Shown: in pieces, positions 24,347-41,382 of the stretch
How positions within the stretch are numbered: position 1 is the stretch's first letter
How the letters are laid out: every line of letters begins with the position of its first letter
NCBI RefSeq assembly: GCF_009914755.1
Contig: NC_060932.1
Source of the DNA: the human T2T-CHM13v2.0 reference genome, Homo sapiens
Reading direction: 5' to 3' (one strand)
DNA: 64,000 nt
Translations under genes and position numbers: made by a program
The notes under the pieces: generated by a model
Seen by the model: the letters and a program-made list of their open reading frames with translations, nothing else
The model's database searches: none
Told to the model about the DNA's origin: nothing

Positions 24347-24694
<348 letters not shown>

Positions 24695-24778
24695 TCAGTC
24701 ACTCAATTAAATCCAATGATTTTTAAATTTGATTACATTATTATTATTTCATTAAACTTCAATCTCACTACTAGGTGT

Positions 24779-24974
24779 TGTATTAGTCTGTTTTCATGCT
24801 GCTGATGAAGACATTCCCTGAGACTGGGTAATTTACAAAAAGGGGGTTTAATGGGGAACTCACAGTTCCACGTGGCTGGGGAAGCCTCACAATCTTGGCA
24901 GAGGGCAAGGAGGAGCAAGTCATGTCTTATGTGGATGGCGGCAGGAAAAGAGATCTTTTACAGGGAAACTCCTG
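24779..24974 (-). mobile_element. THE1A/B solo LTR, first half
   Basis: TGTATTAGTCTGTTTTCATGCTGCTGAT...GGAGGAGCAAGTCATGTCTTA...GGGAAACTCC; preceded by GGTGT (24774-24778). Confidence 0.92.
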
Positions 24975-25887
24975 TTCTTTTTGTTTGTTTGTTTTTGTTT
25001 TTTGTTATACTGTAAGTTCTGGGGTACATGTGCACAACGTGCAGGTTTGTCAGAGGTATACACGTGCCATGGTGGTTTGCTGCACCCATCAACTCATCAT
25101 CTACATTAGGTATTTCTCTCAATGCTATCCCTCCCCCAGCCCCCCACTCCCCAACAGGCCCTGGTGTGTGATGCCCCCCCACCCCATGCATATGTGTTCT
25201 CATTGTTCAACTCCTACTTACAAGTGAGAGCATGCAGTGTTTGTAAGTGTTTGTTTTCCTGTTCTTGTGTTAGTTTGCTGATAATGACGGTTTCCAGCTT
25301 CATCCATGTCCCTGCAAAAGACATGAACTCATCCTTTTTTATGGCTGCATCATACTCCATGGTGTATACGTGCCACATTTTCTTTATCCAGTCTATCATT
25401 GATGGGCATTTGGGTTGGTTCCAAGTCTTTGCTATTGTGAATAGTGCTGCAATAAACATACCTGTGCATGTGTCTTTATAGCAGCATGATTTATAATCCT
25501 TTGAGTATATACCCAGTAATGGGATGGCTGGGTCAAATGGTATTTCTAGTTCTAGATCCCTGAGGAATCGCCACACTGACTTCCACAATGGTTGAACTAG
25601 TTTACAGTCCCACCAACAGTGTAAAAATGTTCCTATTTCTCCACATCTTCTCCAGCATCTGTTGTTTCCTGACTTTTTAATGATTGCCACTCTAACTGGT
25701 GTGAGATGGTATCTCAATGTGGTTTTGATTTGCATTTCTCTAATGACCAGTGATGGTGCGCTTTTCTTCATATATTTGTTGGCCACATAAGTGTCTTCTT
25801 TTCAGAAGTGTTTGTTCATATCTTTTGCCCACTTTTTGATGGGGTTGTTTGTTTTTTTCTTTTAAATTTGTTTAAGTTCCTTGTAGA
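24975..25887 (-). mobile_element. L1PA (L1PA7-like) 3' end, ~0.9 kb, 5'-truncated
   Basis: (TTTG)n tail and L1PA 3'UTR; ORF 25214-25786 is the ORF2p C-terminus ([26 protein letters not shown]). Confidence 0.95.
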
Positions 25888-25895
25888 TTCCTTGT

Positions 25896-28800
25896 AGAGG
25901 ATGATGTTACTCCCCATACACCAGAGGGTGTACAACCCCCTATGGTATTGTTTGTAATTTCCAGGAGTGGAAGAATGATGTTACTCCCCATATCGCAGGG
26001 GGTGTACACCCAAATGCGATATTGTCCATAATATTTAGGTGGGGATAGGATAGTGTTAATCTCCATATCCCAAAGGGTGTACACCCCCCTCCATTTGTAC
26101 ACCTTCTTGCGATATTGTTCATAATATACAGGGAAAGAGAGGATGATGTTACTCCCTGTATTGCAGGGGGTGTACACCCTCATGCGATATTATCTGTAAT
26201 AACCAGGGAGTGAGAGGATGATGCTACTCTTCATATCACAGGGAATACTCATGCTACTGCGATATTGTTTATAATATTCAGGGAGGGAGAGGATGATGTC
26301 AGTTGCCATATAAAAGGGGATATACCCACCCCTGTGATACTGTTTGTAATATTCACGGGGAAAGGAGATGTTACTACCCATATCACCCGGTGTGTACACC
26401 CTTCTGCGATATTGTTCATAATATTCAGGGGGAGAGAAAATGATCTTACTCCCGAAGTTGCTGTGTATACACAGCCCTGCCATGTTGTTCATAATATCTA
26501 GGGGGAAGAGGGTAATAGTACTCCCCATATCACAGGTGTTGTACAGCCCCTGTGATATTGTTCATAATATCCAGTGGGGGAGAGGATATTACTCTCAATA
26601 TTACGGGGCGGGGGGTACACCATTATATAATATGGTTTGTAATCTGTAGGGGATGACAACATGATATTACTCCCAATATCACAGGGGGTGTACAACCCCC
26701 TCGAGATACTGTTCCTAATATCCAATGGGGGAGGCGATGATATTACTGTCAGTATTGCAGGTGGTGAACACCTCTCCTGTGATATTGTTCCTAACATCCA
26801 AAGTGGAGAGGATGATATTGCTTCCAATATTACAGGGGGTGTACACCCCTCCTATGATATTGTTCCTAATATTCCGGGAGTGGGGAGAGGATGATATTAC
26901 TCCCAATATTGCAGGAGGTGTGCACACCACTGTGATATTGTTCCTAATATTCTGGAAAGGAGAGAATGATATTACTTCCAATACTACAGGGGGTGTACAC
27001 CCCTCTTATGATGTTGTCCCTAATACTCAGGGGGAGAGAAGATGATATTACCCCCAATATCGCAGGAGGTGTGCATTTCTTCGTGATATTGTTGCTAATT
27101 ACCATGGGGTGAGAAGATGATATTGCTCCCAATGTCACAAGGGGTGTACACCCCCCATGATATTTTTCCTAATATCCAGAGGGGGATAGGATGATATTAC
27201 TCCCAATATAGCAGGTGGTGTACACTCCCCTTGTGATACTGTTTCTAATATCCAAAAGGGGAGACAATGATATTACTGTCAATACCGCAGGGGGTGTACG
27301 CACCCTCTGTGACCCTGTGATATTGTTCTTAATACCCAGGTTGGGAGAGGGTGATATTACGCCCAATATCACAGAGGGGGTACACCCCGTTTGTGATATT
27401 GTTTCTAATACCCGGGGGGGGGAGAGAATGTTATTACTCCCAATATCGCAGGGGGTGTACACCCCCCTGAGATATTGTTCCTAATATCCGGTGGGAAAGA
27501 GGATGATATTACTCCCAATAGTGCAGGGAGTGTACACCCTTCCTGTGATATTGTTTCTAATATGCAGAAAGAAATAGGATGATATTACTTCCAATAGCTC
27601 AGGGGGTGTACACACCCCCTGTGATATTGTTCCTAATATCCAGGGTAGGAGAGGAATGATATTACTTCCAATATCGCAAAGACTGTACACCCCCGCTGTG
27701 ATATTGTTCCTAATATCCAGGTCAGGAGAGGACAATATTACTCCCAATATCGCAGGGAGTGTATATCCCGCCGCGTGATATTGTTCTCAATATCTGGGGC
27801 GGGGGGAAAGGATGATATTACTCCGAATATCTTAGGGGATGTACACCCCTCTGTGATATTGTTCATAGTATCCAGTGAGGAAGACAATGATATTATTCCC
27901 AATATTGCAGCAAGTGTGCAACCCCACCCCCCATGGTATTGTTCCTAATATCAATGGGAGAGAGGATGATATTACTTTCTATATCGCTGGGGTGTACTCC
28001 CCACTTGTGATACTGTTAATAATTTCAAGGGTGGGAGACGATAATATCACTGTAAATATCGCAAAGGGTGTACAACGGCCCTGTGATATTGCTCCTAATA
28101 TCCGGGGGAAGAGAGGATGATATTAATCCCAATATAGCAGGGGTTGTCCACCCCCTTAGTAGATGTTGTTACTAATACCCAGGAGACGAGAGTGTGATAT
28201 CATTCCCAATAACTCAGCGGGTGTACCTCCTGTTTGTGATATTCTTCCTAATATTCAGTGGGGGAGAGGATAATAATACTCCCAATATCGTAGGGGATGT
28301 AGGACCCCCTGTGATATTGTTCCCAATATACAGTTTTGGAGAGGTTGATAATACTCCCAATATCGCAGGGGTGAACACCTTGCCTGTGGTATTGTTCCTA
28401 ATATCCACTGGGGTGTATCATGATATTACTGCCAATATCGCAGACAGTGTAAAAACCCCTATGATATTGTTCCTAATATCCAGGGGAAGAAAATGATATT
28501 ACTCCCAATAGTGCAGGGAATGTACACCCCCGTGTGTTATTTTTCCTACTCTCCAGGAGGGGAGAGGATATTACTCGCAATATCGCAGGAGGTGTACAAC
28601 CCCTGGTGATATTGTTCCTAATATCCAGGGGTAGAGGATGATATTACTCTCAATATCGCAGTTGCTGTACACATCTCCTGTAATATTGTTTCTAGTATCC
28701 AGTGGGGGAGAGGATGAAATTACTCTTAATATCTCAGGGGGTATACACACTCCCTGTGATACTGTTCCTAATATCCAGAGGGGGAAAGGGTGATATTACT

Positions 28801-31800
28801 CCCAATATCAAAGGGGTTGTACAACCACCCCCATGATATTTTTGCTAATATCCGGGGTGGGGGGGAGAGGATGACATTACTTCCAATGTCGCAGGGAGTG
28901 TACACCCCCTCTGTGATATTGTTTTTAATATTCAGATGGGAGAGCATTATATTACAATATCACAGGGTGGTGTACACACCCGTCTGTGATATTCTTCCTA
29001 ATACCCAGGAAAGGAGAGGATGATATTACTTTCAATATCGCAGGAGTTGTACACATCTCTGTGATCTTGTTTTTAATACCCGGAGAGGGAGAAAATGATA
29101 TTACTACCAATATCGCAGGCAGTGTACACCCCCCCCCCGTGATATAGTTTCTAATATTCAGGGAGGAAGAGGATGATATTATGCCCAATATTGCAGGGGT
29201 TGTACACTCACCCTGTGACATCATTCCTGTGATATCACCCTGTGATATCTAAATTTCCAAAGAGGGAGATGTTGTTACTCTTAATATTGTAAACACGCTG
29301 TGTAGACACCCTCCTGTCATATGGCTCGTAATATCTGGGGGGGCGGGGAGAGAAGATGGTGATATTACTCCCAATATCACAGGGGGGTGTCCACCCACAG
29401 ACATGTGGGGAGTAATATCACCCCCTTCTACCCCACCCTGGACATTATGAGTCATATGACAGGGTCCTCCACCCCCCACCATATAGGGAGTAATGTCACC
29501 CCCCTCTCCCCTCCTGGATATTATGAGCCATATGACAAGGGGGTGTCCACCCCCCGCCATATGAGGAGTAATATCACCCTCTTAAACCCCCCTGGATATT
29601 ACGAGCCATATGACAGGAGGGTGTCTACACAGCGTGTTTACAATATTAAGAGTAACAGTATCTCCCTCTTTGGAAATTTCGAACAATATCACAGGAAATT
29701 GTACAGCACCTGCGATATTGGGAGTAATATCATCCTCTCCTCCCCAGGGATATTAGGAAAAATATCACAAAAGGGATATACACCTCCTGCGATATTGGGA
29801 GTAATATCATCCTCTTCCCCCCCACCCCGGATATTAGGAACAATATCACAGGGGGTGTACACCCCTGAGATATTGGGAGTAATGTCATCCTCATCCTCTC
29901 CCCACCTGGATATTAGGAACAATATCAAAGGGGAGATGTACACGTCTTGCGATATTGGGAGTAACATTGTCCTTTTCCCCCCTGGATATTGGGAAAAACA
30001 TCCAAAAGGGGTGTACACTTTCCGCGATATTGGGAGTAATAACATCCTGTTCTCCTTTGAATATAAGGAAAAATATCACAGAGGGGGTGTACACCCCTGC
30101 GATATTGGGAGTAATATTCTCTCCCCACCTGGATATTAGGAACAATATCAAATGGGGTGTACACCTCCTGCAATATTGGGAGTAATATTGTTTTCTGCCC
30201 CCCCCCCCCGGAGTATTAGAAAAAAATATAACAAAAGCACAAAAAGGGTGTACACCCCTCTGCGATATTGGGAGTAATATCCTCTTTCCCCCACACAAGA
30301 TATAAGGAAAAATGTTACAAAAGGGGTATACACCTTCTGTTGTATTGAAAGTAATATCATCCTCTCTCTCTTTGAATATTAGGAGAAATGTCACAAGGGG
30401 GGTGTACACTTTCTGCAATATTGGGAGTAATATCACCCACTGGATACTAGGAACAATATCACAAAAAGGGTGTACACCGCCTGCGATTTTGGGAGTAATA
30501 TCGTCCTCTCCCACTTTGAATATTAGCAAAAATACCACAGAGGGGTTGTACACCCCCTGCGATATTGGGAGTAATATCATCCTCTTCTTCCCTGAATATT
30601 AGGAACAATATCACAGGGGGGTGTACACTCCGTGACATTGAAAGTTCTGTTATCCTCTCCGCACCAGGATATTAGGAAAAATATCTCGGAGGAGTGTGCA
30701 TTTCCTGCCATATTGGGAGTTATTGTCGTTTCCCTCCATAAATATTAGGAACATATCACAAGAAGGGCATACACCCCCTGCGATATTGGGAGTAATATCA
30801 TCCTCTCCTTTTGTGAATTTTAGGAACAATATCACAGGGGGGATGCACACCCTCTGCTATATTGGGAGTAATATCATCATCTCACTCCCTGGATAATAAA
30901 ACAATGTAACAGTCGGGGCGTGCACCTCCTGCAATAATGGGAGTAATATCATTCTCTCCCTTCCTGGATATTAGAAACAATATCACACGGGGGGTGTGCA
31001 TTCCCTGCGATATTGGGAGTTATGTCATCCTCTCACCCTGTGGATAGTACAAACAATATCACAGGGGGGTGTACACACGTGGTGTTTACGATATTGGGAT
31101 TGATATCATCCTCTTTCTGCCTGGCTATTGCAAATAATATCACAAGGGGATGTACACTATCTGCAATATTCAGAGTAATATCATCCTTCCCCCCGCCCCA
31201 GATATTACACAATATCACAGAAGGGTGTACACCCCCTGCGTTATTGGGAGTAATATCATTTTCTCCCATTCTGGATGTTACGAACTACATCAAAGGGGAG
31301 TGTACACCCGTGCGATGCTTGCAGTAATATCATCCTCTCTCCCCCTGGATATTACGAACAATATCACAGGAGGGTGTGCCCTCCCTGGGATATTGGAAGT
31401 AATATAGTCCTCTTTCTCCCTGGATATTACGAACAATATCACGGGGGTGTACACTCACTGCGATATTGGGAATGTTATCATCCACTTTCCCCGTGCATAT
31501 TGCGAACAGTATTACAGGGGCTGTACAGCCCCTGCGATAGGAAGTAATATCATTCTCCCCCTGACTGGATATTAGGAACAATATCACAGGGGGCTGTACA
31601 CCCCCTGCGATATTGGGAGTAATATCATCCTCTACCACCCTGAGTATCACGAACAAGATCACAGGGGGGTGGACACCGCCTGACATTTTGGGAGTAATAT
31701 CATTTTCTACCACCCTGAATATTATGAACAATATAACAGATAATGTACACACAGAATATTTACGGTATTGGGAATAATATCATCTCACCGCCTGGATATT

Positions 31801-34800
31801 ATGAAAAATATCACAGGGAGGTGTACACCCCCTGCGATATTGGCAGTAATATCCTTCTCTCCCCGCTGGATATTAGGAACAATATCACAGGGAGGTGTAC
31901 CCCCCTGCCAAATTGGGAGTAATATCATCCTCTTGCCCCTGGATATTACAAACAATATCACAGAAGGGTGTACACCCCCTGCGATATTGGGAGTAATATC
32001 CTCTACCTTTCTGCATATTATGAACAATATCATACAGAAGTAATATCATTCTCTTCTCCCCTGCATATTATGAACAATATCACAGGGAGGTGTACCCCCC
32101 TGCCAAATTGGGAGTAATATCATCCTCTTGCCCCTGGATATTACAAACAATATCACAGAAGGGTGTACACCCCCTGCGATATTGGGAGTAATATCCTCTA
32201 CCTTTCTGCATATTACGAACAATATCATACAGAAGTAATATCATTCTCTTCTCCCCTGAATATTATGAACAGTATCACAGGGGGGTGTACACACCCTGCG
32301 ATAGGTGGAGTACTATTATCCTCTCTCCGCCTGGATATTATGAACATTATCACAGGGAAGCATGCACCTGTGTGTAATATCCTCTTCCCTTCTGAATATC
32401 ACAGGGAAGTCTGCACCTTCTGCAATATGAAGAGTAGTGTCATTTCCTCCAACGCCAATATTACAAACAATATCACAGGAAGGTGTACACCCTCTCTGAT
32501 ATGAGGTGTAATATCATCTTCTCCATACCGGAATATTACGAACAATATCGCAGAGGTGTGTATACCTTCTGCGATGTGGGGAGTAATATCATCTTCTCTT
32601 CCCCTGGATATTATGAACAATATCACAGACGTTGTAAACAGACGGTGTCTATGATATCGAAAAAAATATAATCTCCCCCCCCCCAATATTATGAACATTA
32701 TCACAGGGGCATGCACCCCCTCTGATATTGAGTAATATCATTTTCTTCTTTCCTGAATATTAAAAACAATATCACAGGGGAATGTACACCCCCTGTGATA
32801 TTGGGAGTAATATCATCCTCTTCCCCACTGGATATTAAAAACAATATCATAAAGGATGTACACCCCCTGTGATATTGGGAGTAATATCATCCTCTTTCTT
32901 CCTGGATATTACAAACAATATCACAGGGGGGTATACACCCCCTGCGATATTGAGAGTAATATCATCCTCACCCTACTGGGATATTATGAAAAATATCACA
33001 GGGGGATGTACACCTTCTGCGATATTGGGAGTAATATCATCCTTCTCCCACTTGGATATTACGAATAATATCACAAGGGGATGTACACAACCTGCGATAT
33101 AGGGAGTAATACCATCCTCTCCCCCTCCCCCAGAAACTACGAACAATATCACAGAAAGGTTCACACCGCCTGTGATATAGGGAGTAATGTCGTCCTCTGC
33201 CCCCTTGGATATTATGAACAATGTCACAGAGGGGTGTATACCACCTCGATATTGGGGTTAATATCATCCTCTCACCACCTGGATATTATGAATAATATGA
33301 CAGAAGGGTGTATACCCCCTGTGATATCAGGAGTAATGTCCTCCTCTCCCCTCCTGGATATTAGCAACAATATAACAGGTGCGTGTACTCCCCCTGCGAT
33401 ATTGGAAGTAATAACATTGTCTCCCACCCCCGGATATTACAAACAATATCACGAGGGGAGTGAAAACTGCCTGCGATATTGGGAGTAAGATCATACTCTC
33501 CACCCCTAAATATTATGAACAGTATCACAGAAGGGTGTACAATCCCTGCGATATTGGGAGTCACATCATCCTCTCCTCCTCTGAGTTTTACAAACAATAT
33601 CACAGGGTGGTGTACATACCTTGTGATATTGAGAGTAATGACGTTTTGTCCACCTCTGGATATTACGGACAATATCACAGGGCGGTGTACACCCCCTGCC
33701 ATGTTCGGAGTAATATAATCCTCTCCTATCCTGGATATTACAAACAATATCAAAGGAGGGTGAACACACCCTGCGATATTGGGAGTCATATCATCCTCTG
33801 CCATCCTAGATATAACGAAAAATATCATAGAAAATGTATAAAAAGGGTGTTTTCGATATTGGGAGAATATCCTCTCCCCCCTGGATATTACGAACATTAT
33901 CGCAGTGGGGTACACACCCCCTGCATTATGGGGAGTAATATCCTCTCCCCCCCGGATATTATGACCAATATTGCAGGGGTGAGTACATCCCCTGTGATGT
34001 GTGCAGTAATATAATTTTCTCTTCACTTGAATATTACGAACAATGTTGCAGGGGGCTGTACACGCCTGGCAATATGGGGAGTGACATCATCCCCTCCCCC
34101 CATGGATATTACAAACAATATCGCAGGGGTGTCTACACCCCCTGCAATATGGGGAGTAACATCATCCTCTGTTCCCGCCGTGATATTATGAACAATATCG
34201 CAGGGGCGGTGTAAATTCCTTGCGATATAAAGAGTAACATCATCCTCTCCCTACCTGGTTTTTAGGAACAATATCGCAGGGGGGTAACATCATCCTTTCC
34301 CTTTCTGGATATTACAAACAGTATCGCAGGTTGTTTATGGGAAGTAACATCATTCTCTATTCCCCTGGATATTACGGACAATATCTCAGGGTAGGGGTAC
34401 ACCCTATGTGATATTTAACATCACCCTCTTCTTCCCTGGATATTACAAGCAATAATGCGTGAGGGTGTACACCCTTTGAGATATGGGGAGTAACATCATC
34501 CTCTCCTGATCTGGACATTACAAACAATATCATAGGGACGTGTAAACCCACTGGGATATGGTGAGTAACATTAAAGTCTCCCCCACCAGATATTATGGAC
34601 AATATCGCTGGCGGGGTGGTGTATCTCCCTTGCAATGGGCGTATCCCCTATCAATGTCTGGGGTGGGGGAGTGGATGATATTACTTTTCAACATCACAGG
34701 GAGTGTACACCTCCCTGTGATAGAGTTCGTAATATCCAGAAGGGGAGAGGAAGAGATTACTCCCAATATCGATGTTACTCAATGTCGCAGTGGGTGTACA

Positions 34801-37800
34801 CCCTCTGATATTATTGTTGGTAATATCCAGGGGGGTGAAAATGATATTACTCAGAATATTGCAGAGGGTGTACACCCCCTGTTATATTGTTCGTAATTTT
34901 CAACAGGAAAGATCATATTAGTCCCAATATCGCAGGGGATGTACACTTCCCTGTAATATTGTTCTTAATACCCGGGGGGCGAAAGGACAATATTACTCCC
35001 AATGTCTTAAACACCGTGTGTGTACACCGCCCTGTAATAAAGTTCGTAATGACCAGGGGAAGGGAGAGGATGACATTACTCCCCATTTCGCATGAGGCTT
35101 ACACTCCTCTGTGATATTGTTCATAATCTCCAGGAGGAGAGAGGATGTTACCACTTCCAATATTGCTAAGGGTGTACACCCCCCTGTGATATTGTTCGTA
35201 ATTTCCAGGGGAAAGAGGATGATATTACCCCCAATAGCAGAGGGAGTGTACATCCCCCTAAGATATTCTTTGAAATATCCAAGGGGAAAAAAGATTATAT
35301 TACTCCCAATATCGCAGGGGTTTTACACCCCCCGTGATATTGTTTGTAATATTAAAGGGAAGAGAGGATAATATTACTTCCAATATTGCAAAGGGTGTAC
35401 TCCCAACTGTGATATTGTTTGATTACAGGTGTGGAGAGGATGATATTACACATGTTTGATTCAGGTGTGGAGAGGAAGATATTACTCCCAATACCATAGA
35501 GGGTATACACCCTTCTGTGATATTGTTCGTAATATCCAGGGGGGAAGAGTATAATATTACACTTAATATCGAAGGTGGTGTACACCCCCCTGTGATATTG
35601 TTCGTAATATCCAGAAAAAAGAGAGTAATATTATTCCCTATATCAAGTGGGTGTACACCCCGCTGTGATATTGTTCATAATATTCTTGACGGGAGAGGAT
35701 GCTATTACTCCACATATCTCAGGGGGTGTACATCCCCCTGTGGTATTGTTCGTACTTTCCAGGAAGAGAGAGGATGATATTACTCCCAACACTGTATGGG
35801 TGTACACTCCCCTGTGATATTGTTCACAATATCCAAAGGGGGAGAGGATAATATTACTCCCAATATCGCTATGGTTGTACACTCCCCTGTAATATTGTTC
35901 GTAATATCCAGGGGGAAAGAGAATGATATTACTCCCAATATCCCAAGGAGTGTACACCACTTTGTCATATTGTTCACAATATCCAGGTGGGGAGAGGATG
36001 CTGTTAGTCAACAATATCGCAGGGTGTGTACGCCTTCTTGTAATATCATTCCTAATATCCAGAAAGGAAGAAAATGATACTAATCCCAAATTCCAAGGGG
36101 TATACACCCCCCTGTGATATTGTTCTTAATAACCAGAGAGAGAGAGAATAATATTACTCTGAATATTGCAGGGGGTGTACACCCCCTTGTAATATTGTTC
36201 GTAATATCCAGGTGGAGAGATGATGATAATACTCGCAATATCCCATGGGGTGTACATGCCCCTGAGATATTTTTCGTAATATCCAGGGGCGGAAAGGATG
36301 ATAGTAATCCTAATATTGTAAACACGCTGTGTGAACACCCCCACCCCCCAGTGATATTGTTCATAATATCCAGAAAGGGGGAGGTTGATATTTCTGTCAA
36401 TATCACAGGAGTGGTTCACTCCCCTGTGATATTGTTGGTAATATCACGAGAGAGAGAATGATACTACTTCCAATACTGCAGGGTTGTTTGTAGTAATAAA
36501 AGATAGTACTCCCAATATCAAGGTGTTGTACACCCCCTTCTGATATTGTTCAGAATTTCTGAGGAGGAGAGGATGATATTACTCCCAATATTGCAGAGGG
36601 TGTACATCCCCCTGTGATGTTGTTCGTAATATCCAGGAAGGGAGAGAATGATATTACTCCCAATATCACAGGGGGTGTACACCCCCCGTTAATATTTTTC
36701 ATAATAAGCAGGTGTGGAGGGAGGAAGGTACTACTCCCAATTTCGCTGAAGGTATACACACCCCTGTGATATTGTTCATAATTTTCGGGGAAGGAGAGGA
36801 TGATATTACTCCCAATATTGCAAGGGGTGTACACCCCCCCCCCCGTAATATTGGTCTTACTATCCAGAAGGAAAGAGGATGACATTACTACCAATATTGC
36901 AGGGATTGTACACCCTCCTTTGATATTGTTCATAATATCCAGGGGGTAAGAAGATAATTATACTGCCAATATGGCAGGGGGTGTACACCCCCCTGTGATA
37001 TTGGGATGACTCTATATCGCACAAGGTGTAGTCCCCCCTGTGATGTTGTTCGTAATATCCAGGGAAAAACAGGATTATATTACTCTTAATGTATCAGGGA
37101 GTGTACACCCTCCTGTGATATTGTTCATAATATTCACAATGGTAGAGGATATTACTCCCAATATCGCAGGGGGTGTAAACCCCCCTGTGATATTGTTTGT
37201 AATATCCAGGGGGAGTGAGTATGATATTACTCCTAATATCGCAGGGGGTGTACACCCCCCGGGATATTGTTTCCAATTTCCACAAGGGGAGAGGATGATA
37301 TTACTCCCAGTATCGCAGAAGGTGTACACCACCCTGTGATATTGTTCATAATATCCAGAGGGAAAGAAGATGATATCACCACCAATATTCCAGGGAGTGT
37401 ACACCCACCTGTGATATTGTTCATAATATTCAGGAGGGGAGAGGATGATTTTGTGCCCTATACCCCAGGGGGTGTACACCCACCTAAGATATTGTTTGTA
37501 ATTTCCAGGAGGGGAGAGGATGATATTACTTTCCATATCGCTGGGGGTGTACACCCCCAAGCGATATTGTGCATAATGTTTAGGCGGGGATAGGATAATG
37601 TTAATCCTCATATCAAAAAGGTTGTAAACCTCCTTGTGATATTGTTCGTAATATCTGGGGAGGGGGAGGATAATGTTACTCTTTATATCACAGGAAAAGT
37701 ATACCCCCCCTGCGATATTGCCCGTAATATACAGGGAAAGAGAAGGTGATGTTACTCCCCATATTGCTGTGGGTGTACACACCCCCGGGATATTTTCAGT

Positions 37801-40800
37801 AATAACCAGGGGGCAAGAGAATGATGTTACTTTCCATATCGCAGGCAATATACATTCCACTGCGATATTGTTCCTAATATCCAGAAAGGGAAAGGATGAT
37901 ATTACTCCCCATATCAAAGGGGTATACACATCCTTGTGATATTATTTGTAATATCCACGGGGAAAGGAGATAATGTTACCACCCATATTGCTGGGCATGT
38001 ACACCCCTCGCGATATTGTTCATAATATTTAGGGGGAGAGAAAATAATATTACTCCCGATATTGCAGGGGTGCACACACCACTGCCATATTGTTCGTAAT
38101 ATCCAGGAGGAGAGGATGATATTACTCCCCATATCGCAGAGCGTGTACACCCTACTGCGATATTGTTTGTAATATCCGTGGGGGAGATGATATTACTCCC
38201 AATGTCGTAAAACATCTTGTGTGTACATCCTCTGTGATACTGTTCATAATATCCGAGGTGGCAGAGGGTGATGTTACTCCCAATATTGCAGGAGCACAGC
38301 CCCCCCACCCCCGTGATATTGTTTATAATTTTCAGGGGGGAGGATGATATTATTCCCAATATCGCAGGGGTGTACACTCTCCGTGATATTGTGTATAATA
38401 TCCACGGGGGGAGACAATGATATTACTTCCAATATCGCAGGGGGTTGTATACCCCTCGTGATATTGTTCATAATATCCAGGGAGGTGAGAAGATAATATT
38501 ACTCTCAATATTGCAGAGGGTGTACACCATTCTGTAATAGAGTTCGTAATATTCAGGGGAGGGAAGGATGATATTACCCCCAATATCACAGGGGGTGTAC
38601 ACGTCCCTTGTGATACTGTTTCTAATATCCAAATGGGGGAGACGATGATATTACTGTCAATATCGCAGGTGGCGTTTACTTCCCCCGTCATATTGTTCCT
38701 AACATCCAGAGGGGGAGAGGATGATATTACTCCCAATATCGCAGGGGGCGCACACCCCTCCTGTGATATTGTTCCTAATATCCAGGTGGCAGAAGATGAT
38801 ATTACTCCCAATATGGCAGGGAGTGTACATTTCTTCGTGATATAGTTCCTAAAAACCATAGAGTGAGAGGATAATATTACTCCCAATGTCGCAGGGGGTG
38901 TACACTCCCCCTGTTGTATTGTTCCTAATATTCGGGGCGGGGGGAAGGATAATATTTCTCCCAATATAGCAGGCGGTGTACACCGCCCCTTGTGATATTG
39001 TTCCTAATATCCAAAAGGGAAGACGATGATATTACTGTCAATACTGCAGAGGGTGTACACCCCCTCTGTAATATTGTTCCTAATATCCAGGTTGGTAGAG
39101 GGTGATATGATGCCCAATATCACAGAGGGGGCACACTCCCTTTGTGATATAGCTCCTAATATCCAGCGGAGAGAAGATGTTCTTACTCCCAATATCGCAG
39201 AGAGTGTACACCCCCATGAAATATTGTCCCTAATATCCAGGGGGAAAAAGGATAACATTACTCCCAATAGCGCAGGGAGTGTACACCCTTCCTGTGATAT
39301 TGTTTCTAATATACAGGGGGAAATAGAATGATATTACTCCCAATAGCTCAGGGGGTGTACACCCTACTTGTGATACTGTTTCTACTATCCAGGGGGAAGA
39401 AGATAATATTACTCCCAATATCACAGGAGGTGTACACACACCCCCGTGATATTGTTCCAAATATCCAGAGTGGGGGAGGATGATATTACTTCCAATATCG
39501 CAAAGGCTGTGCACCCCCCTGTGATACTGTCTGTAATACCCAGGGTGGAGAGGATGATATTTCTTCCCATATCGCAGGGTGTATATATACCCTGTAATAT
39601 TGTCCGTAACATCAAGGGGTGGAGAGGATGATACTATTCTCCATATCACAGTGTGTACATCCCGCTGCGATACTGTCCATATCTCCTATGGGGGAAGAGG
39701 ATGATATTACTCCTCCAATCACAGGGGGTGTACACCCCCGTGTAATATTGTCCGTAACATCCGGGGGGAGGGGATGATATTACTTCCCATATTGCAGGGG
39801 GTGTTCCCGCCCCTGTGAAATTATCCGTAACATCCAGAGGGTGAGGGGATGATATTACTCCCCATATCGCAGGAAGTGTAAAACCCCGTGTGATATTGTC
39901 CATAACATCCGGGGGGAAGAGGATGACATTACTCCCTATATCGCAGGAGGTGTACACCTTCCTGTAATATTGTCCTTAACATCCAAGAGGAGAGAGGATG
40001 ATGTTACTCCTCATATTCCAGCGGGTGTACAGTCCCCTGCGATATTGTCCTAAATATCAAGAAAGGGAGAGGATGAAGTTACTCCTCATACCGCAGCGGG
40101 GTGTACATATCCGTAATATCCAGGGTTGGGGGGAGGATGATGTTACTCTCCATATCGCAGAAGGTGTAAACTCTCTGGCAGTATTGTCTGCAATATCCAA
40201 AAGGGAGAGGATGATGTTTCTCACTATATCCCAGTGGGTGTACACCCCGCTACGATATTGTTTGTGATATCCATAAGAGGAGAGGATTATGTTACTCCCC
40301 ATATCGCGGGGGGTGTATGCAATATTGTTTGTAATATCCAGGGAGGGAGAGGATGATGCATATCCCCATAACGCAAAGGGTGTACACACCCCCTGCGATA
40401 TTATCCGTAATATCCAGGGAGGGAGAGGATGATGTTACTCCCCATATCGCAGGGTATGTACACCTCCCTGTGATATTGTTCGTAATATTCAGGGGGAGAG
40501 AAAATGATATTACTCCACATATCCGAGGGGATGTACACACCCTGCAATATTGTTCGTAATATCCAGTGAGAGAGAGGATGATATTACTCCCCATACTGCA
40601 GGGGGTGTACAACCTACCGTGATATTGTTCATAATATCTGGGGAGGAAAATGATATTACTCCCAATATCGTAAACATCCTTAGTGTACATTTTCTGTGAT
40701 ATTGTTCATAATATCCAGGGTGGCAGAGGATATTACTCCCAATATCGCAGGGTGTGTACACCCTCCTTTGATATTGTTGGTAATATCTAGGGGAGGAGAG

Positions 40801-40954
40801 GATGATATTACTCTGAATATGGCAGGGGATATAACCCCCTGTTACATTGTTCATAATATTCAGGGAGTGGGAGAAGATGATAGTACCGACAATATCGCAG
40901 CAAGTGTATACTCCTCTGTTATATTGTTTATAATTTTCAGGGGGCGGGGAGAGG
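25896..40954. repeat. SATR1/SATR2-type satellite array, ~70-bp monomer, ~15 kb
   Basis: Roughly 200 diverged tandem copies of GGATGATATTACTCCCAATATCGCAGGGGGTGTACACCCCCTGTGATATTGTTCCTAATATCCAGGGGGGAGA; orientation is reversed over ~29400-34630. Family name is from recall. Confidence 0.9.
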
Positions 40955-41131
40955 TTTTTTTTTTAAACCATCAGATCTCATGAGACTCATTAACTATCAC
41001 GAGAACAGTGAAGGAAAGGCCCACCCCCATAATTCAGTCAACTCGCACTCGGTTCTTCCCATGACATATGGGAATTGTGGGAGTTAAAATTCAAAATGAG
41101 ATTTGGGTGGAGACACAGCCAAACCATATTC
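40955..41131 (-). mobile_element. THE1A/B solo LTR, second half
   Basis: TTTTAAACCATCAGATCTCATGAGACT...GAGATTTGGGTGGAGACACAGCCAAACCATAT; followed by GGTGT (41132-41136). Confidence 0.92.
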
Positions 41132-41382
41132 GGTGTCAATTTACTTAGGAATTTAATTAAAATTTCTAAGTTTAAACGTTAGAGAAAATTTAGCGTAGAT
41201 AAGAGGTTTCATTAGCAATCATGACAGTAAATTCCATAAGAGAAATACACGTAGCTTATTTTTAATTTTTCCTGACTGCTAAGTGGAGTAAGTTCTGTAA
41301 GAAAATATATCAAGATTATTGTGAAAAAATAATAGTTAATATAGTCTTTCTGCAAGGATTTAGAATAGAAAACGGGTATTAT

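What the first reader, a model, noticed from the sequence alone, without database searches (positions are those of the whole stretch)
24774..41136. A 15-kb satellite array, fused to an L1 tail, splits one THE1 solo LTR: satellite moved as cargo?
Seen: the THE1 halves (24779-24974 and 40955-41131) are collinear and join without loss (...GGGAAACTCC | GTTTTT..AAACCATCAGATC). The LTR's 5-bp TSD GGTGT is intact at 24774 and 41132. Between the halves lie an antisense L1PA 3' end with its poly(A)-derived tail on the left, then the satellite. The right breakpoint is TTTT|AA. Known: TTTT/AA is the L1 endonuclease cleavage consensus. Inference: the L1 tail and satellite occupy one L1-type insertion interval, with the satellite where the L1 5' part should be. 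Monomers look more diverged from each other than the host L1 is from its consensus, so the array probably arrived pre-formed rather than amplifying here. Candidate mechanisms are a template switch from L1 RNA to satellite RNA/DNA, or capture of satellite DNA during repair of the L1 5' junction.
Basis: partly seen in the sequence, partly recalled or inferred. Interest (0 to 1): 0.82.

Follow-up and report, generated by a model that had tools for sequence, protein, structure and literature searches.

The report
Old satellite block joined to L1
A 15-kb block of an old primate satellite (SATR1) and the tail end of an L1 retrotransposon sit together in a single L1-type cut site inside an older LTR, so the satellite most likely arrived ready-made during one L1 insertion, a possible route by which satellites spread.

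Summary
A MaLR-type solo LTR with a GGTGT duplication is split at its own T-run/AAAA, a textbook L1 endonuclease site. The gap holds an antisense 0.88-kb L1 3' end with its poly(A)-derived tail, a 7-nt filler, and 15,060 bp of SATR1 satellite: 202 monomers in +/-/+ blocks. A T-run lies on both sides.

The array was not built here. Monomers are about 72% alike at every spacing and lie 14.8% from their consensus. They are no closer to each other than to monomers of 13 other loci. The L1 is 88-90% identical to its best relatives. Only two small young duplications exist.

No other place in CHM13 shares the L1/satellite junction or the array's internal inversion junctions.

New here: the L1 stops exactly where its RNA would pair over 10-11 nt with the satellite strand just outside the captured block. 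Enumeration puts this at about 0.1-0.2% by chance, found post hoc.

Best reading (0.55): one L1 integration event joined a pre-formed satellite block to its 5' end. Main rival (0.25): two separate events at the same T-run. Outgroup genomes, not available here, would decide. It is a new variant of the known 5'-L1 chimeras and a one-off among the 19 other SATR1 loci sampled.

The parts
24774..24778 (.). Left copy of the LTR's own 5-bp target-site duplication, GGTGT
   Evidence: Read directly. Identical to 41132-41136.
24779..24982 (-). Left part of a MaLR-type (THE1/MST-like) solo LTR. It ends in the T-run copy TTCTTTTT (24975-24982).
   Evidence: 39 of 39 scored non-self copies match at 84-89%. 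Aligned to relatives. The minus orientation and the family name rest on recall of MaLR LTR ends, not on a library.
24983..25007 (-). Degenerate poly(T), the complement of the L1 poly(A) tail
   Evidence: Read directly. It merges with the LTR's T-run.
25008..25890 (-). L1 3' end of about 0.88 kb, antisense and 5'-truncated at 25890
   Evidence: 39 of 39 scored non-self hits at 88-90%. Eight of 8 intact copies continue TGGATATTAGCCC beyond this point.
25891..25897 (.). 7-nt filler CTTGTAG, a copy of 25880-25886, at the L1/satellite junction
   Evidence: Read directly. The junction string is unique in the genome (1 match, which is this locus).
25895..29371 (+). SATR1 block 1: 46 monomers in + orientation. 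It starts at consensus position about 55-56 (AGAGGATG).
   Evidence: nhmmer monomer map. Primer hits.
29248..29682 (.). First orientation switch. Inverted arms 29248-29343 and 29587-29682 (96 nt, 95% complementary) surround 243 nt of variant monomers.
   Evidence: No other genome locus spans it; the best other hit is 79%.
29409..34636 (-). SATR1 block 2: about 71 monomers in - orientation. It contains a young 195-bp x 2.6 tandem duplication at 31845-32355 (92% matches).
34693..40954 (+). SATR1 block 3: 84 monomers in + orientation. It ends at consensus position 60 (...GGGGAGAGG).
   Evidence: The second switch (34636-34693) has no strong palindrome and no other locus spans it.
40955..40964 (.). 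T10, the right copy of the LTR's T-run. It is the putative L1 target-site duplication and is directly followed by AAACC.
   Evidence: Read directly. Relatives have a single T(4-7) run before AAAACC.
40965..41131 (-). Right part of the same LTR
   Evidence: Aligns next to the left part in 5 of 7 relatives at 77-83%.
41132..41136 (.). Right copy of GGTGT

Best explanation
One L1 integration event put both pieces here.

**Steps shown by the sequence.** L1 ORF2p nicked the + strand of an intact MaLR-type LTR at ...CTCCTGTTTTTTT/AAAACC. The T-run primed on the L1 poly(A). First-strand cDNA (the window's + strand) ran about 0.88 kb and stopped at ...GTAGATTC.

**Steps inferred.** At that point the un-copied L1 RNA reads CUAAUAUCCAG, which pairs with the minus strand of SATR1. 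A SATR1 strand annealed there, in a way resembling twin priming. The cDNA end was joined, with a 7-nt templated filler, to a block of at least 15 kb of satellite that already had its present monomer order and its +/-/+ blocks. The far end of the block was joined to the other side of the staggered break, which left a T-run on both sides.

I think a DNA block is somewhat more likely than a 15-kb satellite RNA copied by template switching. The DNA could be a broken or circle-derived fragment, or copying from satellite DNA elsewhere. My odds are roughly 35 to 20 within the 55.

Since the insertion the array has only decayed, apart from one 195-bp tandem duplication and one inverted duplication of about 100 bp.
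For: 1. **The break is an L1 endonuclease site.** Relatives read T(4-7)/AAAACC exactly where the halves part. The tail is on the T side and AAACC is on the other side.

2. **One duplication for the pair.** In 3 of 5 relatives, 5-7 nt of the T-run align to both halves. There is no T-run, poly(A) or duplication between the L1 and the satellite.

3. **The array is older than its container's guest.**
- The mean pairwise identity of 190 near-full monomers is 0.717, and 0.714-0.730 at spacings 1 to 50.
- All registers align at 69-72%, and no self-HSP reaches 82%.
- Substitution divergence from the consensus is 14.8%.
- Identity between blocks (0.709-0.721) is about the same as within blocks (0.706-0.725).
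- Identity to the monomers of 13 other loci is 0.68-0.73, against 0.65-0.75 within those loci.
- The L1 is 88-90% identical to its 39 best relatives.

4. **The junction.** In about 3.1 kb of L1 only 2-3 sites share 9 nt or more with the cyclic SATR1 consensus. The truncation falls at one of them, at offset -1. The array's first base lies about 6 nt past the same motif (consensus positions 40-49 against a start at about 55-56). Enumerating all L1 cut points, satellite phases and orientations gives such a match within 20 nt of both missing sides in 0.07-0.21% of combinations.

5. **Precedent.** L1 cDNA intermediates joining foreign DNA ends is documented (PMC7058536, passages; PMC13526784, abstract). 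5'-L1 chimeras with one duplication, an endonuclease motif and a tail are a catalogued class (bioRxiv 10.1101/2025.02.02.635956, passages).
Against: - The duplication is only a homopolymer of about 5-10 T next to a poly(T) tail, so it carries little information. It is shorter than the 10-30 bp used as a criterion in the chimera catalogue.
- The complementarity at the junction is inverted relative to the product. It is not simple microhomology end joining. The filler is not the G-run that fill-in on the satellite strand would give. The coincidence was found after looking.
- Fifteen kb is far beyond any partner described in the passages I read.
- No donor array survives in CHM13. The best other matches are 73-79% over 300 nt or more, and one stretch of 165 nt reaches 87% at chr14:40.006 Mb without extending. 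Nothing therefore shows where the block came from.
- None of the 19 other SATR1 loci sampled repeats the arrangement, and the junction motif is unique.
- Simultaneous arrival has not been tested in other species.
Confidence: 0.55

Rival explanations
1. Two separate events at the same T-run. A SATR1 block first entered the LTR at T-run/AAAA by some other route. Later an L1 nicked the left T-run, now T-run/AGAGG, and inserted exactly at the array's edge without a duplication of its own. The reverse order, with loss of the L1 5' part, is a variant.
For: T-runs are reusable L1 endonuclease sites. L1s are so dense that an L1 at an array edge is not absurd genome-wide. In 2 of 19 other loci an L1 piece touches a SATR1 array in other ways: chr9:14.98 Mb on the poly(A) side and chr12:70.917 Mb with an internal L1 fragment. 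Most other arrays have no L1 at the visible edge, so SATR1 does spread without L1.
Against: It needs two rare hits within about 1 nt of each other and an L1 with no duplication. There is no LTR or T-run between the L1 and the satellite, and no satellite to the left of the tail. It leaves unexplained why the first, non-L1 event chose an L1 endonuclease site and duplicated the T-run. It also leaves the L1/SATR1 complementarity at the truncation point to chance, at 0.07-0.21%. A second L1-type event at the right-hand T10/AAA would leave a T- or A-run at a place where none is seen.
Confidence: 0.25
2. A pre-fused donor transcript, similar to a 5' transduction. At another locus a 5'-truncated L1 already lay next to a SATR1 array. 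A read-through RNA of about 16 kb that ended at the L1 poly(A) signal was then retrotransposed in trans.
For: It gives exactly the order duplication - satellite - L1 3' end - poly(A) - duplication. On the L1-sense strand the array has 0 AATAAA and 2 ATTAAA, so a long read-through is not excluded. An L1 does lie inside a SATR1 region at chr9:14.98 Mb, with satellite about 8 kb upstream as well. TE transduction seeding a satellite is documented for WaluSat (bioRxiv 10.1101/2021.07.12.451456, passages).
Against: No other locus carries the L1/satellite junction or either inversion junction. An RNA donor is copied rather than moved and should persist at roughly 88-90% identity. A 16-kb cDNA is extreme. 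At the would-be donor, an ordinary L1 insertion would leave a satellite-derived duplication at the junction, which is absent.
Confidence: 0.12
3. Growth in place. Only a short satellite seed was captured, and the 15 kb arose here by unequal exchange.
For: The array starts at consensus position about 55-56 and ends at position 60. That is a whole number of monomers plus 3-5 nt, as tandem growth from one unit would give. Two small young duplications show that local duplication does occur.
Against: There is no periodicity or preferred register. The best 8-monomer run is 0.831, barely above 60 order shuffles (highest 0.826, mean 0.798), and at about 82% it is older than the L1. Monomers are as far from each other as from other loci. 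Copies made after an L1 of this age should be about 88-90% alike.
Confidence: 0.03

Closest known systems
5'-L1 chimeric insertions (U6/L1, 5S/L1, Alu/L1, mRNA/L1), as catalogued in bioRxiv 10.1101/2025.02.02.635956 (passages read)
   Same: Foreign sequence is fused to the 5' end of a 5'-truncated L1 3' segment. There is one poly(A) tail, an ORF2p endonuclease motif and one duplication around the pair.
   Different: The partner is a 15-kb tandem satellite with internal inversions, not a small RNA, an Alu or an exon. The duplication is only a short T-run.
L1-mediated rearrangements, in which L1 cDNA is joined to a foreign DNA end (PMC7058536, passages; PMC13526784, abstract)
   Same: A normal L1 3' junction (endonuclease site, tail) on one side, with the cDNA's other end joined to unrelated DNA. 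The 2026 abstract reports that homology promotes such joins.
   Different: Those are somatic deletions, translocations or duplications in tumours and reporter cells. Here the result is a clean germline insertion of a free block, with both target flanks kept.
Twin priming of L1 (recalled: Ostertag and Kazazian 2001; described in passages and in the abstract of PMC2837659, listing)
   Same: A second nucleic-acid strand anneals inside the L1 RNA by a short homology and sets where the first cDNA ends.
   Different: No inverted L1 segment is present. The annealing strand would be foreign satellite DNA or RNA, not the target's own top strand.
TE transduction seeding a satellite: WaluSat (bioRxiv 10.1101/2021.07.12.451456, passages)
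   Same: A retroelement event places satellite sequence at a new locus.
   Different: There a short sequence was transduced and the array expanded afterwards. Here the array arrived long and already diverged, and did not expand.
SATR-HERVE-SATR unit of the Xiao/DA duplicons (PMC2700803, figure legend passage)
   Same: SATR1 also travels as part of a larger unit. Five of the 19 other loci sampled share the same truncated Alu | SATR array | ERV pol-like flank.
   Different: Those copies share both flanks, so they look like duplicated composites. The chr8 array has neither of those flanks.

Membership tests
5'-L1 chimeric insertion | Non-L1 sequence directly abuts the 5' end of a 5'-truncated L1 3' segment | tested here: met
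   The L1 ends at 25890, followed by a 7-nt filler and then the satellite. Eight of 8 other L1 copies read on as L1.
5'-L1 chimeric insertion | Poly(A) tail at the L1 3' end and an ORF2p endonuclease motif at the target | tested here: met
   Degenerate poly(T) at 24983-25007. Relatives of the LTR read T(4-7)/AAAACC at the split.
5'-L1 chimeric insertion | One target-site duplication flanking both parts (10-30 bp in the catalogue) | tested here: inconclusive
   Only a T-run of about 5-10 nt lies on both sides. Five to 7 nt of the relatives align to both halves in 3 of 5. It is a homopolymer next to a poly(T) tail, so it carries little information.
5'-L1 chimeric insertion | Both parts appear at the same node in a multi-species alignment | not testable with these tools
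   No primate genome other than the window's own is held.
5'-L1 chimeric insertion | The partner is an RNA, in sense orientation to the L1 | tested here: inconclusive
   The array has both orientations (46 +, about 71 -, 84 +). Whether SATR1 RNA was the template cannot be told from sequence.
L1 5' transduction | Flank carried upstream of a full-length L1, with a donor locus that shares the junction | tested here: not met
   The L1 is only 0.88 kb of the 3' end. No other locus spans the junction (40 of 4123 candidates scored; 1 match, which is this locus).
L1 twin priming | An inverted L1 5' segment next to the 3' segment | tested here: not met
   No inverted L1 lies beside the junction. Only the idea of internal annealing is borrowed.
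SATR1 satellite | Matches sequences taken from the SATR1 consensus | tested here: met
   The published SATR1_L and SATR1_R primers give 59 and 46 hits at 2 mismatches or fewer, all in 26413-40793, with 0 in shuffles. A 28-nt motif gives 1846 genome hits against 0 for the control. The Dfam/Repbase model itself was not available.
MaLR (THE1/MST-type) solo LTR | About 370 bp, homologous to thousands of copies, with a 5-bp duplication and TG...CA ends | tested here: met
   4868 first-look candidates. Intact relatives are about 370 bp. GGTGT lies on both sides. The + strand begins TG and ends TC rather than CA. The subfamily (THE1 or MST) could not be tested.
L1PA-type L1 3' end | Homology to primate L1 3' ends; subfamily by diagnostic sites | tested here: inconclusive
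   Homology is clear: 14,235 candidates, with 39 of 39 scored non-self hits at 88-90%. Subfamily assignment needs a library that is not on hand.

The most novel reading that the evidence does not exclude
The block was free satellite DNA, possibly a linearised circle cut out of a SATR1 array. Three observations fit this: the array is a whole number of monomers plus 3-5 nt, no donor copy survives, and the junction filler is copied from the adjacent L1 (25880-25886).

In this reading the block's 3' overhang annealed to the L1 RNA ahead of the reverse transcriptase. An L1 integration intermediate therefore captured it whole. If so, L1 intermediates are one route by which pre-formed satellite blocks are seeded at interstitial sites.

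This would help explain why SATR1 monomers at dozens of dispersed loci are no more alike within a locus than between loci.
Probability: 0.2. Interest if true: 0.75.

Novelty: new variant of a known kind. Interest (0 to 1): 0.55.

Why it matters
How interstitial satellite arrays come to lie at dozens of scattered sites is poorly explained. Here the stratigraphy gives a dated case: an old satellite lies inside a younger L1-type site, which lies inside an LTR. The case shows that an array was moved as a ready-made block of at least 15 kb rather than grown in place, and it carries the marks of L1 integration.

If primate comparisons confirm a single event, three things follow:

- The known 5'-L1 chimeras, which involve small RNAs, Alu and exons, would extend to very large tandem DNA.
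- A germline counterpart would exist for the L1-mediated rearrangements seen in tumours.
- The junction would offer a testable rule: pairing between L1 RNA and a foreign strand decides where the cDNA stops and what it is joined to.

If the two-event rival holds, the locus is an ordinary nested insertion. The only lasting result would then be that SATR1 arrays move as pre-formed blocks.

Tried and rejected
**Donor search**
- The L1/satellite junction, 1.5 kb of array, both orientation-switch junctions and an exact junction motif found no second copy.
- The tool scores only the best 4-40 first-look candidates, so a diverged donor could be missed.
- The 87% match of the first 165 nt to chr14:40.006 Mb does not extend. 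The diagonal averages about 0.74, with peaks of 0.81-0.85, and other registers give 70-73%. It is not a donor.

**Higher-order repeat or in-place growth**
- No periodicity was found.
- One possible old internal duplication of about 750 bp (about 26.98-27.75 kb against 38.7-39.5 kb, about 82%) is marginal. The observed 8-monomer run of 0.831 compares with a highest value of 0.826 in 60 order shuffles.

**L1 twin priming as the cause of the +/-/+ blocks**
- Rejected. Orientation switches are common in SATR1 arrays elsewhere: chr14:40.0 Mb; L034, L036, L037, L024; L043, L044, L046.

**Recurrent L1-SATR1 chimeras at the shared motif**
- The direct-homology product gave 4 hits at 3 mismatches. Three are plain SATR1 monomers and one is an L1 fold-back. 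None is a chimera.

**Other SATR1 arrays abutting L1 3' ends**
- Two of 19 touch an L1 in other configurations and none matches this one. For many of these loci only one edge was in the fetched stretch.

**Literature**
- Searches found no description of a satellite/L1 chimera or of this locus.

**Steps that failed**


Full report
**What is there.** The window is T2T-CHM13 chr8:82,770,001-82,834,000. A MaLR-type solo LTR starts at 24779 and ends at 41131. GGTGT lies on both sides, at 24774-24778 and 41132-41136. From left to right, the LTR is interrupted by:

- a degenerate poly(T), about 24983-25007;
- an antisense L1 3' end, 25008-25890;
- the 7-nt string CTTGTAG (25891-25897), which repeats 25880-25886;
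- 15,060 bp of a roughly 75-bp satellite (25895-40954);
- a run of ten T (40955-40964), followed directly by AAACCATCAGATC of the LTR.

**The LTR halves are collinear and the break is an L1 endonuclease site.**
- The left half with its flank matched 39 of 39 scored non-self copies at 84-89% (4868 first-look candidates, 40 scored).
- Of seven relatives fetched, the left half aligned in all seven. The right half aligned next to it in five. L005 had no right-half match and L007 only a displaced 42-nt one.
- The alignment shows the relatives reading GGGAAACTCC(T/C)(G/A)T, then four to seven T, then AAAACCATCAGATC.
- The window's left half runs through CTCCTGTTCTTTTT (to 24982). The right half begins with T10 and then AAACC.
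- In L002, L004 and L006, 5-7 nt of the T-run align to both halves. In L003 and L008 the alignments stop 2-4 nt apart.
- No LTR sequence is lost, and the single ancestral T-run is now present twice.

T-run/AAAA is the consensus L1 endonuclease site. This is established knowledge, and the motif is also quoted in the passages. The geometry is what target-primed reverse transcription predicts for an antisense insertion. The T-run stays on the left and merges into the poly(T). AA... stays on the right. A copy of the T-run precedes it as the target-site duplication.

**The L1.**
- Positions 25011-25890 matched 39 of 39 scored non-self copies at 88-90% over positions 3-880 (14,235 candidates, 40 scored).
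- If the partners are similarly diverged, this L1 lies about 5-6% from its source. That suggests a mid-aged primate L1. The figure is an inference, and the subfamily could not be assigned without a library.
- Eight of 8 other copies continue TGGATATTAGCCCTTTGTCAG after ...GTAGATTC, so the element is truncated at 25890.

**The satellite is SATR1.**
- Primers designed on the SATR1 consensus (PMC3606032, supplementary file 3) hit the window 59 and 46 times at 2 mismatches or fewer. All hits lie between 26413 and 40793, and none occurred in shuffles.
- A 28-nt motif occurs 1846 times in the genome at dozens of interstitial loci, against 0 for the control.
- This fits the description of SATR1 as an interstitial satellite that is dispersed across the macaque genome.

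**Structure of the array.**
- An HMM built from the array's own monomers places 202 monomers: 46 in + orientation, about 71 in - and 84 in +.
- The first switch is a local inverted duplication. Its arms, 29248-29343 and 29587-29682, are 96 nt long and 95% complementary.
- The second switch, 34636-34693, has no strong palindrome.
- Orientation switches are also seen in other SATR1 arrays. They are a habit of the family, not a mark of L1 twin priming.

**The array was not built here.**
- The mean pairwise identity of the 190 near-full monomers is 0.717. It is flat at 0.714-0.730 for spacings 1 to 50.
- Every alignment register gives 69-72%, and no self-HSP reaches 82%.
- The three blocks are as close to each other (0.709-0.721) as to themselves (0.706-0.725).
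- Monomers differ from their consensus by 14.8% in substitutions alone.
- Monomers of 13 other loci are 0.68-0.73 identical to the chr8 monomers and 0.65-0.75 identical among themselves. There is no locus-specific signature at all.
- The only young features are a 195-bp x 2.6 tandem duplication (31845-32355, 92% matches; monomer pairs 0.91-1.00) and the 96-nt inverted arms.
- One run of about 10 monomers at spacing 146 reaches about 0.82. The observed 8-monomer maximum is 0.831, against a highest value of 0.826 in 60 order shuffles. That is older than the L1 and only marginally significant.

Copies made after an L1 of this age should be about 88-90% alike, so the monomer order predates the insertion. 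An old array inside a younger L1-type site inside an LTR can only have arrived as a block.

**One event or two.**
- Nothing separates the L1 from the satellite except the 7-nt filler. There is no T-run, no poly(A), no LTR sequence and no duplication.
- There is no satellite to the left of the tail.
- A later L1-type event at the right-hand T10/AAA would place new material, with a T- or A-run, where none is seen. This follows from the geometry of target-primed reverse transcription.
- The two-event reading therefore needs two hits within about a base of each other and an L1 without a duplication.

**A new observation at the junction.**
- The L1 stops one base into CTGGATATTA(G). This is the reverse complement of (C)TAATATCCAG, positions 40-49 of the SATR1 consensus.
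- The array begins at about position 55-56, roughly six bases past that motif, in the + orientation.
- In other words, the L1 RNA just beyond the point where the cDNA stops is complementary to the satellite's minus strand just outside the captured block.
- In about 3.1 kb of L1 only two or three sites share 9 nt or more with the cyclic consensus.
- Enumerating every L1 cut point, satellite phase and orientation gives a match of 9 nt or more (direct or inverted) within 20 nt of both missing sides in 0.07-0.21% of combinations, across four L1 copies.
- The exact 10-mer is present 57 times in the array.

The coincidence was found post hoc. The geometry is inverted relative to the product, so it is not plain microhomology joining. 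It fits a strand of SATR1 annealed to the L1 RNA ahead of the reverse transcriptase, in a way resembling twin priming. The cDNA end would then be joined to the satellite's other strand, or the enzyme would switch onto the annealed strand. The two-event reading gives no reason for it.

**DNA or RNA.**
- The array starts at consensus position about 55-56 and ends at position 60. That is a whole number of monomers plus 3-5 nt, as a linearised circle would give. Chance is roughly 8-15% by my estimate.
- No donor survives in CHM13. An excised block would explain that.
- The 7-nt filler copied from nearby sequence looks like end joining.
- These points lean towards DNA. However, the L1-sense strand of the array has no AATAAA and only two ATTAAA, so a long read-through or switched RNA template is not excluded.
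- If the block came from a circle, the sequence that preceded its first base would be its present right end, where the motif is degenerate. The circle idea and the pairing idea therefore do not reinforce each other.

**Generality.**
- Among 19 other SATR1 loci, none repeats the arrangement. Thirteen were examined and six. Often only one edge lay in the fetched stretch.
- At chr9:14.98 Mb an L1 poly(A) abuts the array, and satellite also lies about 8 kb upstream. This is an ordinary L1 inside an array.
- At chr12:70.917 Mb an internal L1 fragment abuts an array.
- Five loci share one composite: truncated Alu, array, ERV pol-like flank. Compare the 'SATR-HERVE-SATR' unit in the passage from PMC2700803.
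- Two chr9 loci are paralogues.
- The junction string is unique, and the direct-homology product was not found.

**Comparison with what is known.**
- The closest class is the 5'-L1 chimeric insertion: unrelated sequence at the 5' end of an L1 3' segment, in one event, with a duplication, an endonuclease motif and a tail (passages of bioRxiv 10.1101/2025.02.02.635956). Partners named in those passages are snRNAs, rRNAs, tRNA, Y, 7SL and 7SK RNAs, Alu and mRNA exons.
- L1 cDNA joining foreign DNA ends is known from tumours (PMC7058536, passages) and from reporter assays (PMC13526784, abstract).
- TE transduction seeding a satellite is known for WaluSat, but there the array grew afterwards.
- Searches found no description of a satellite/L1 chimera or of this locus.

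**Verdict.** Pre-formed arrival is well supported. A single L1 event is the best reading (0.55) but remains untested by outgroups. The mechanism of the join is inferred. I rate it a new variant of a known kind, of moderate interest, and apparently a one-off in this genome.

Noticed in passing
L033 (chr2:71.06 Mb), L035 (chr3:115.25 Mb), L040 (chr10:15.00 Mb), L042 (chr3:132.77 Mb), L045 (chr9:102.39 Mb): Five SATR1 arrays of about 2-3.7 kb share the same two flanks. One is an Alu cut at ...GGAAGGCAGAG. The other is an ERV pol (integrase)-like stretch. They look like copies of one composite unit and may relate to the published SATR-HERVE-SATR element.
   Followed up: partly
L039 (chr9:80.49 Mb) and L044 (chr9:77.04 Mb): The two arrays have near-identical left flanks and variant first monomers, so they are paralogous copies of one segment.
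   Followed up: no
L024 1-1128 (chr9:14.98 Mb): A sense L1 3' end, 86% identical to the window's L1, abuts a SATR1 array directly with its A10 tail. More SATR1 lies about 8 kb upstream. This looks like an L1 inserted into an array.
   Followed up: partly
L046 1816-2103 (chr12:70.917 Mb): A sense L1 ORF2-region fragment ends abruptly at ...GGAGAAATAG, equivalent to window 25633, and a SATR1 array follows within a few bases.
   Followed up: no
window 26980-27750 and 38700-39500: About ten consecutive monomers are about 82% alike across 11.7 kb. This may be an old internal duplication that predates the insertion. It is only marginally above order shuffles.
   Followed up: partly
G000:C2:137661287-137661314: An L1 reads GTAGATTCTGGATATTAG|GGCTAATATC, a fold-back of L1 on itself at the same TGGATATTAG motif where the window's L1 is cut.
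   Followed up: no
L031 9628 to L032 about 4590 (chr14:40.0056-40.0106 Mb, with more array to about 40.028 Mb): This is a multi-block SATR1 locus with +/-/+ orientation, interrupted by an antisense Alu. Its monomers near 40,006,050 are 87% identical to the first 165 nt of the chr8 array, but the similarity does not extend.
   Followed up: partly
window 24360-24660: A full-length Alu with an A-rich tail lies about 110 bp upstream of the LTR. It is unrelated to the finding.
   Followed up: no
window 25895-40954: The array has 43.7% G+C and a CpG observed/expected ratio of 279/719 (0.39). On the L1-sense strand it has no AATAAA and two ATTAAA.
   Followed up: no
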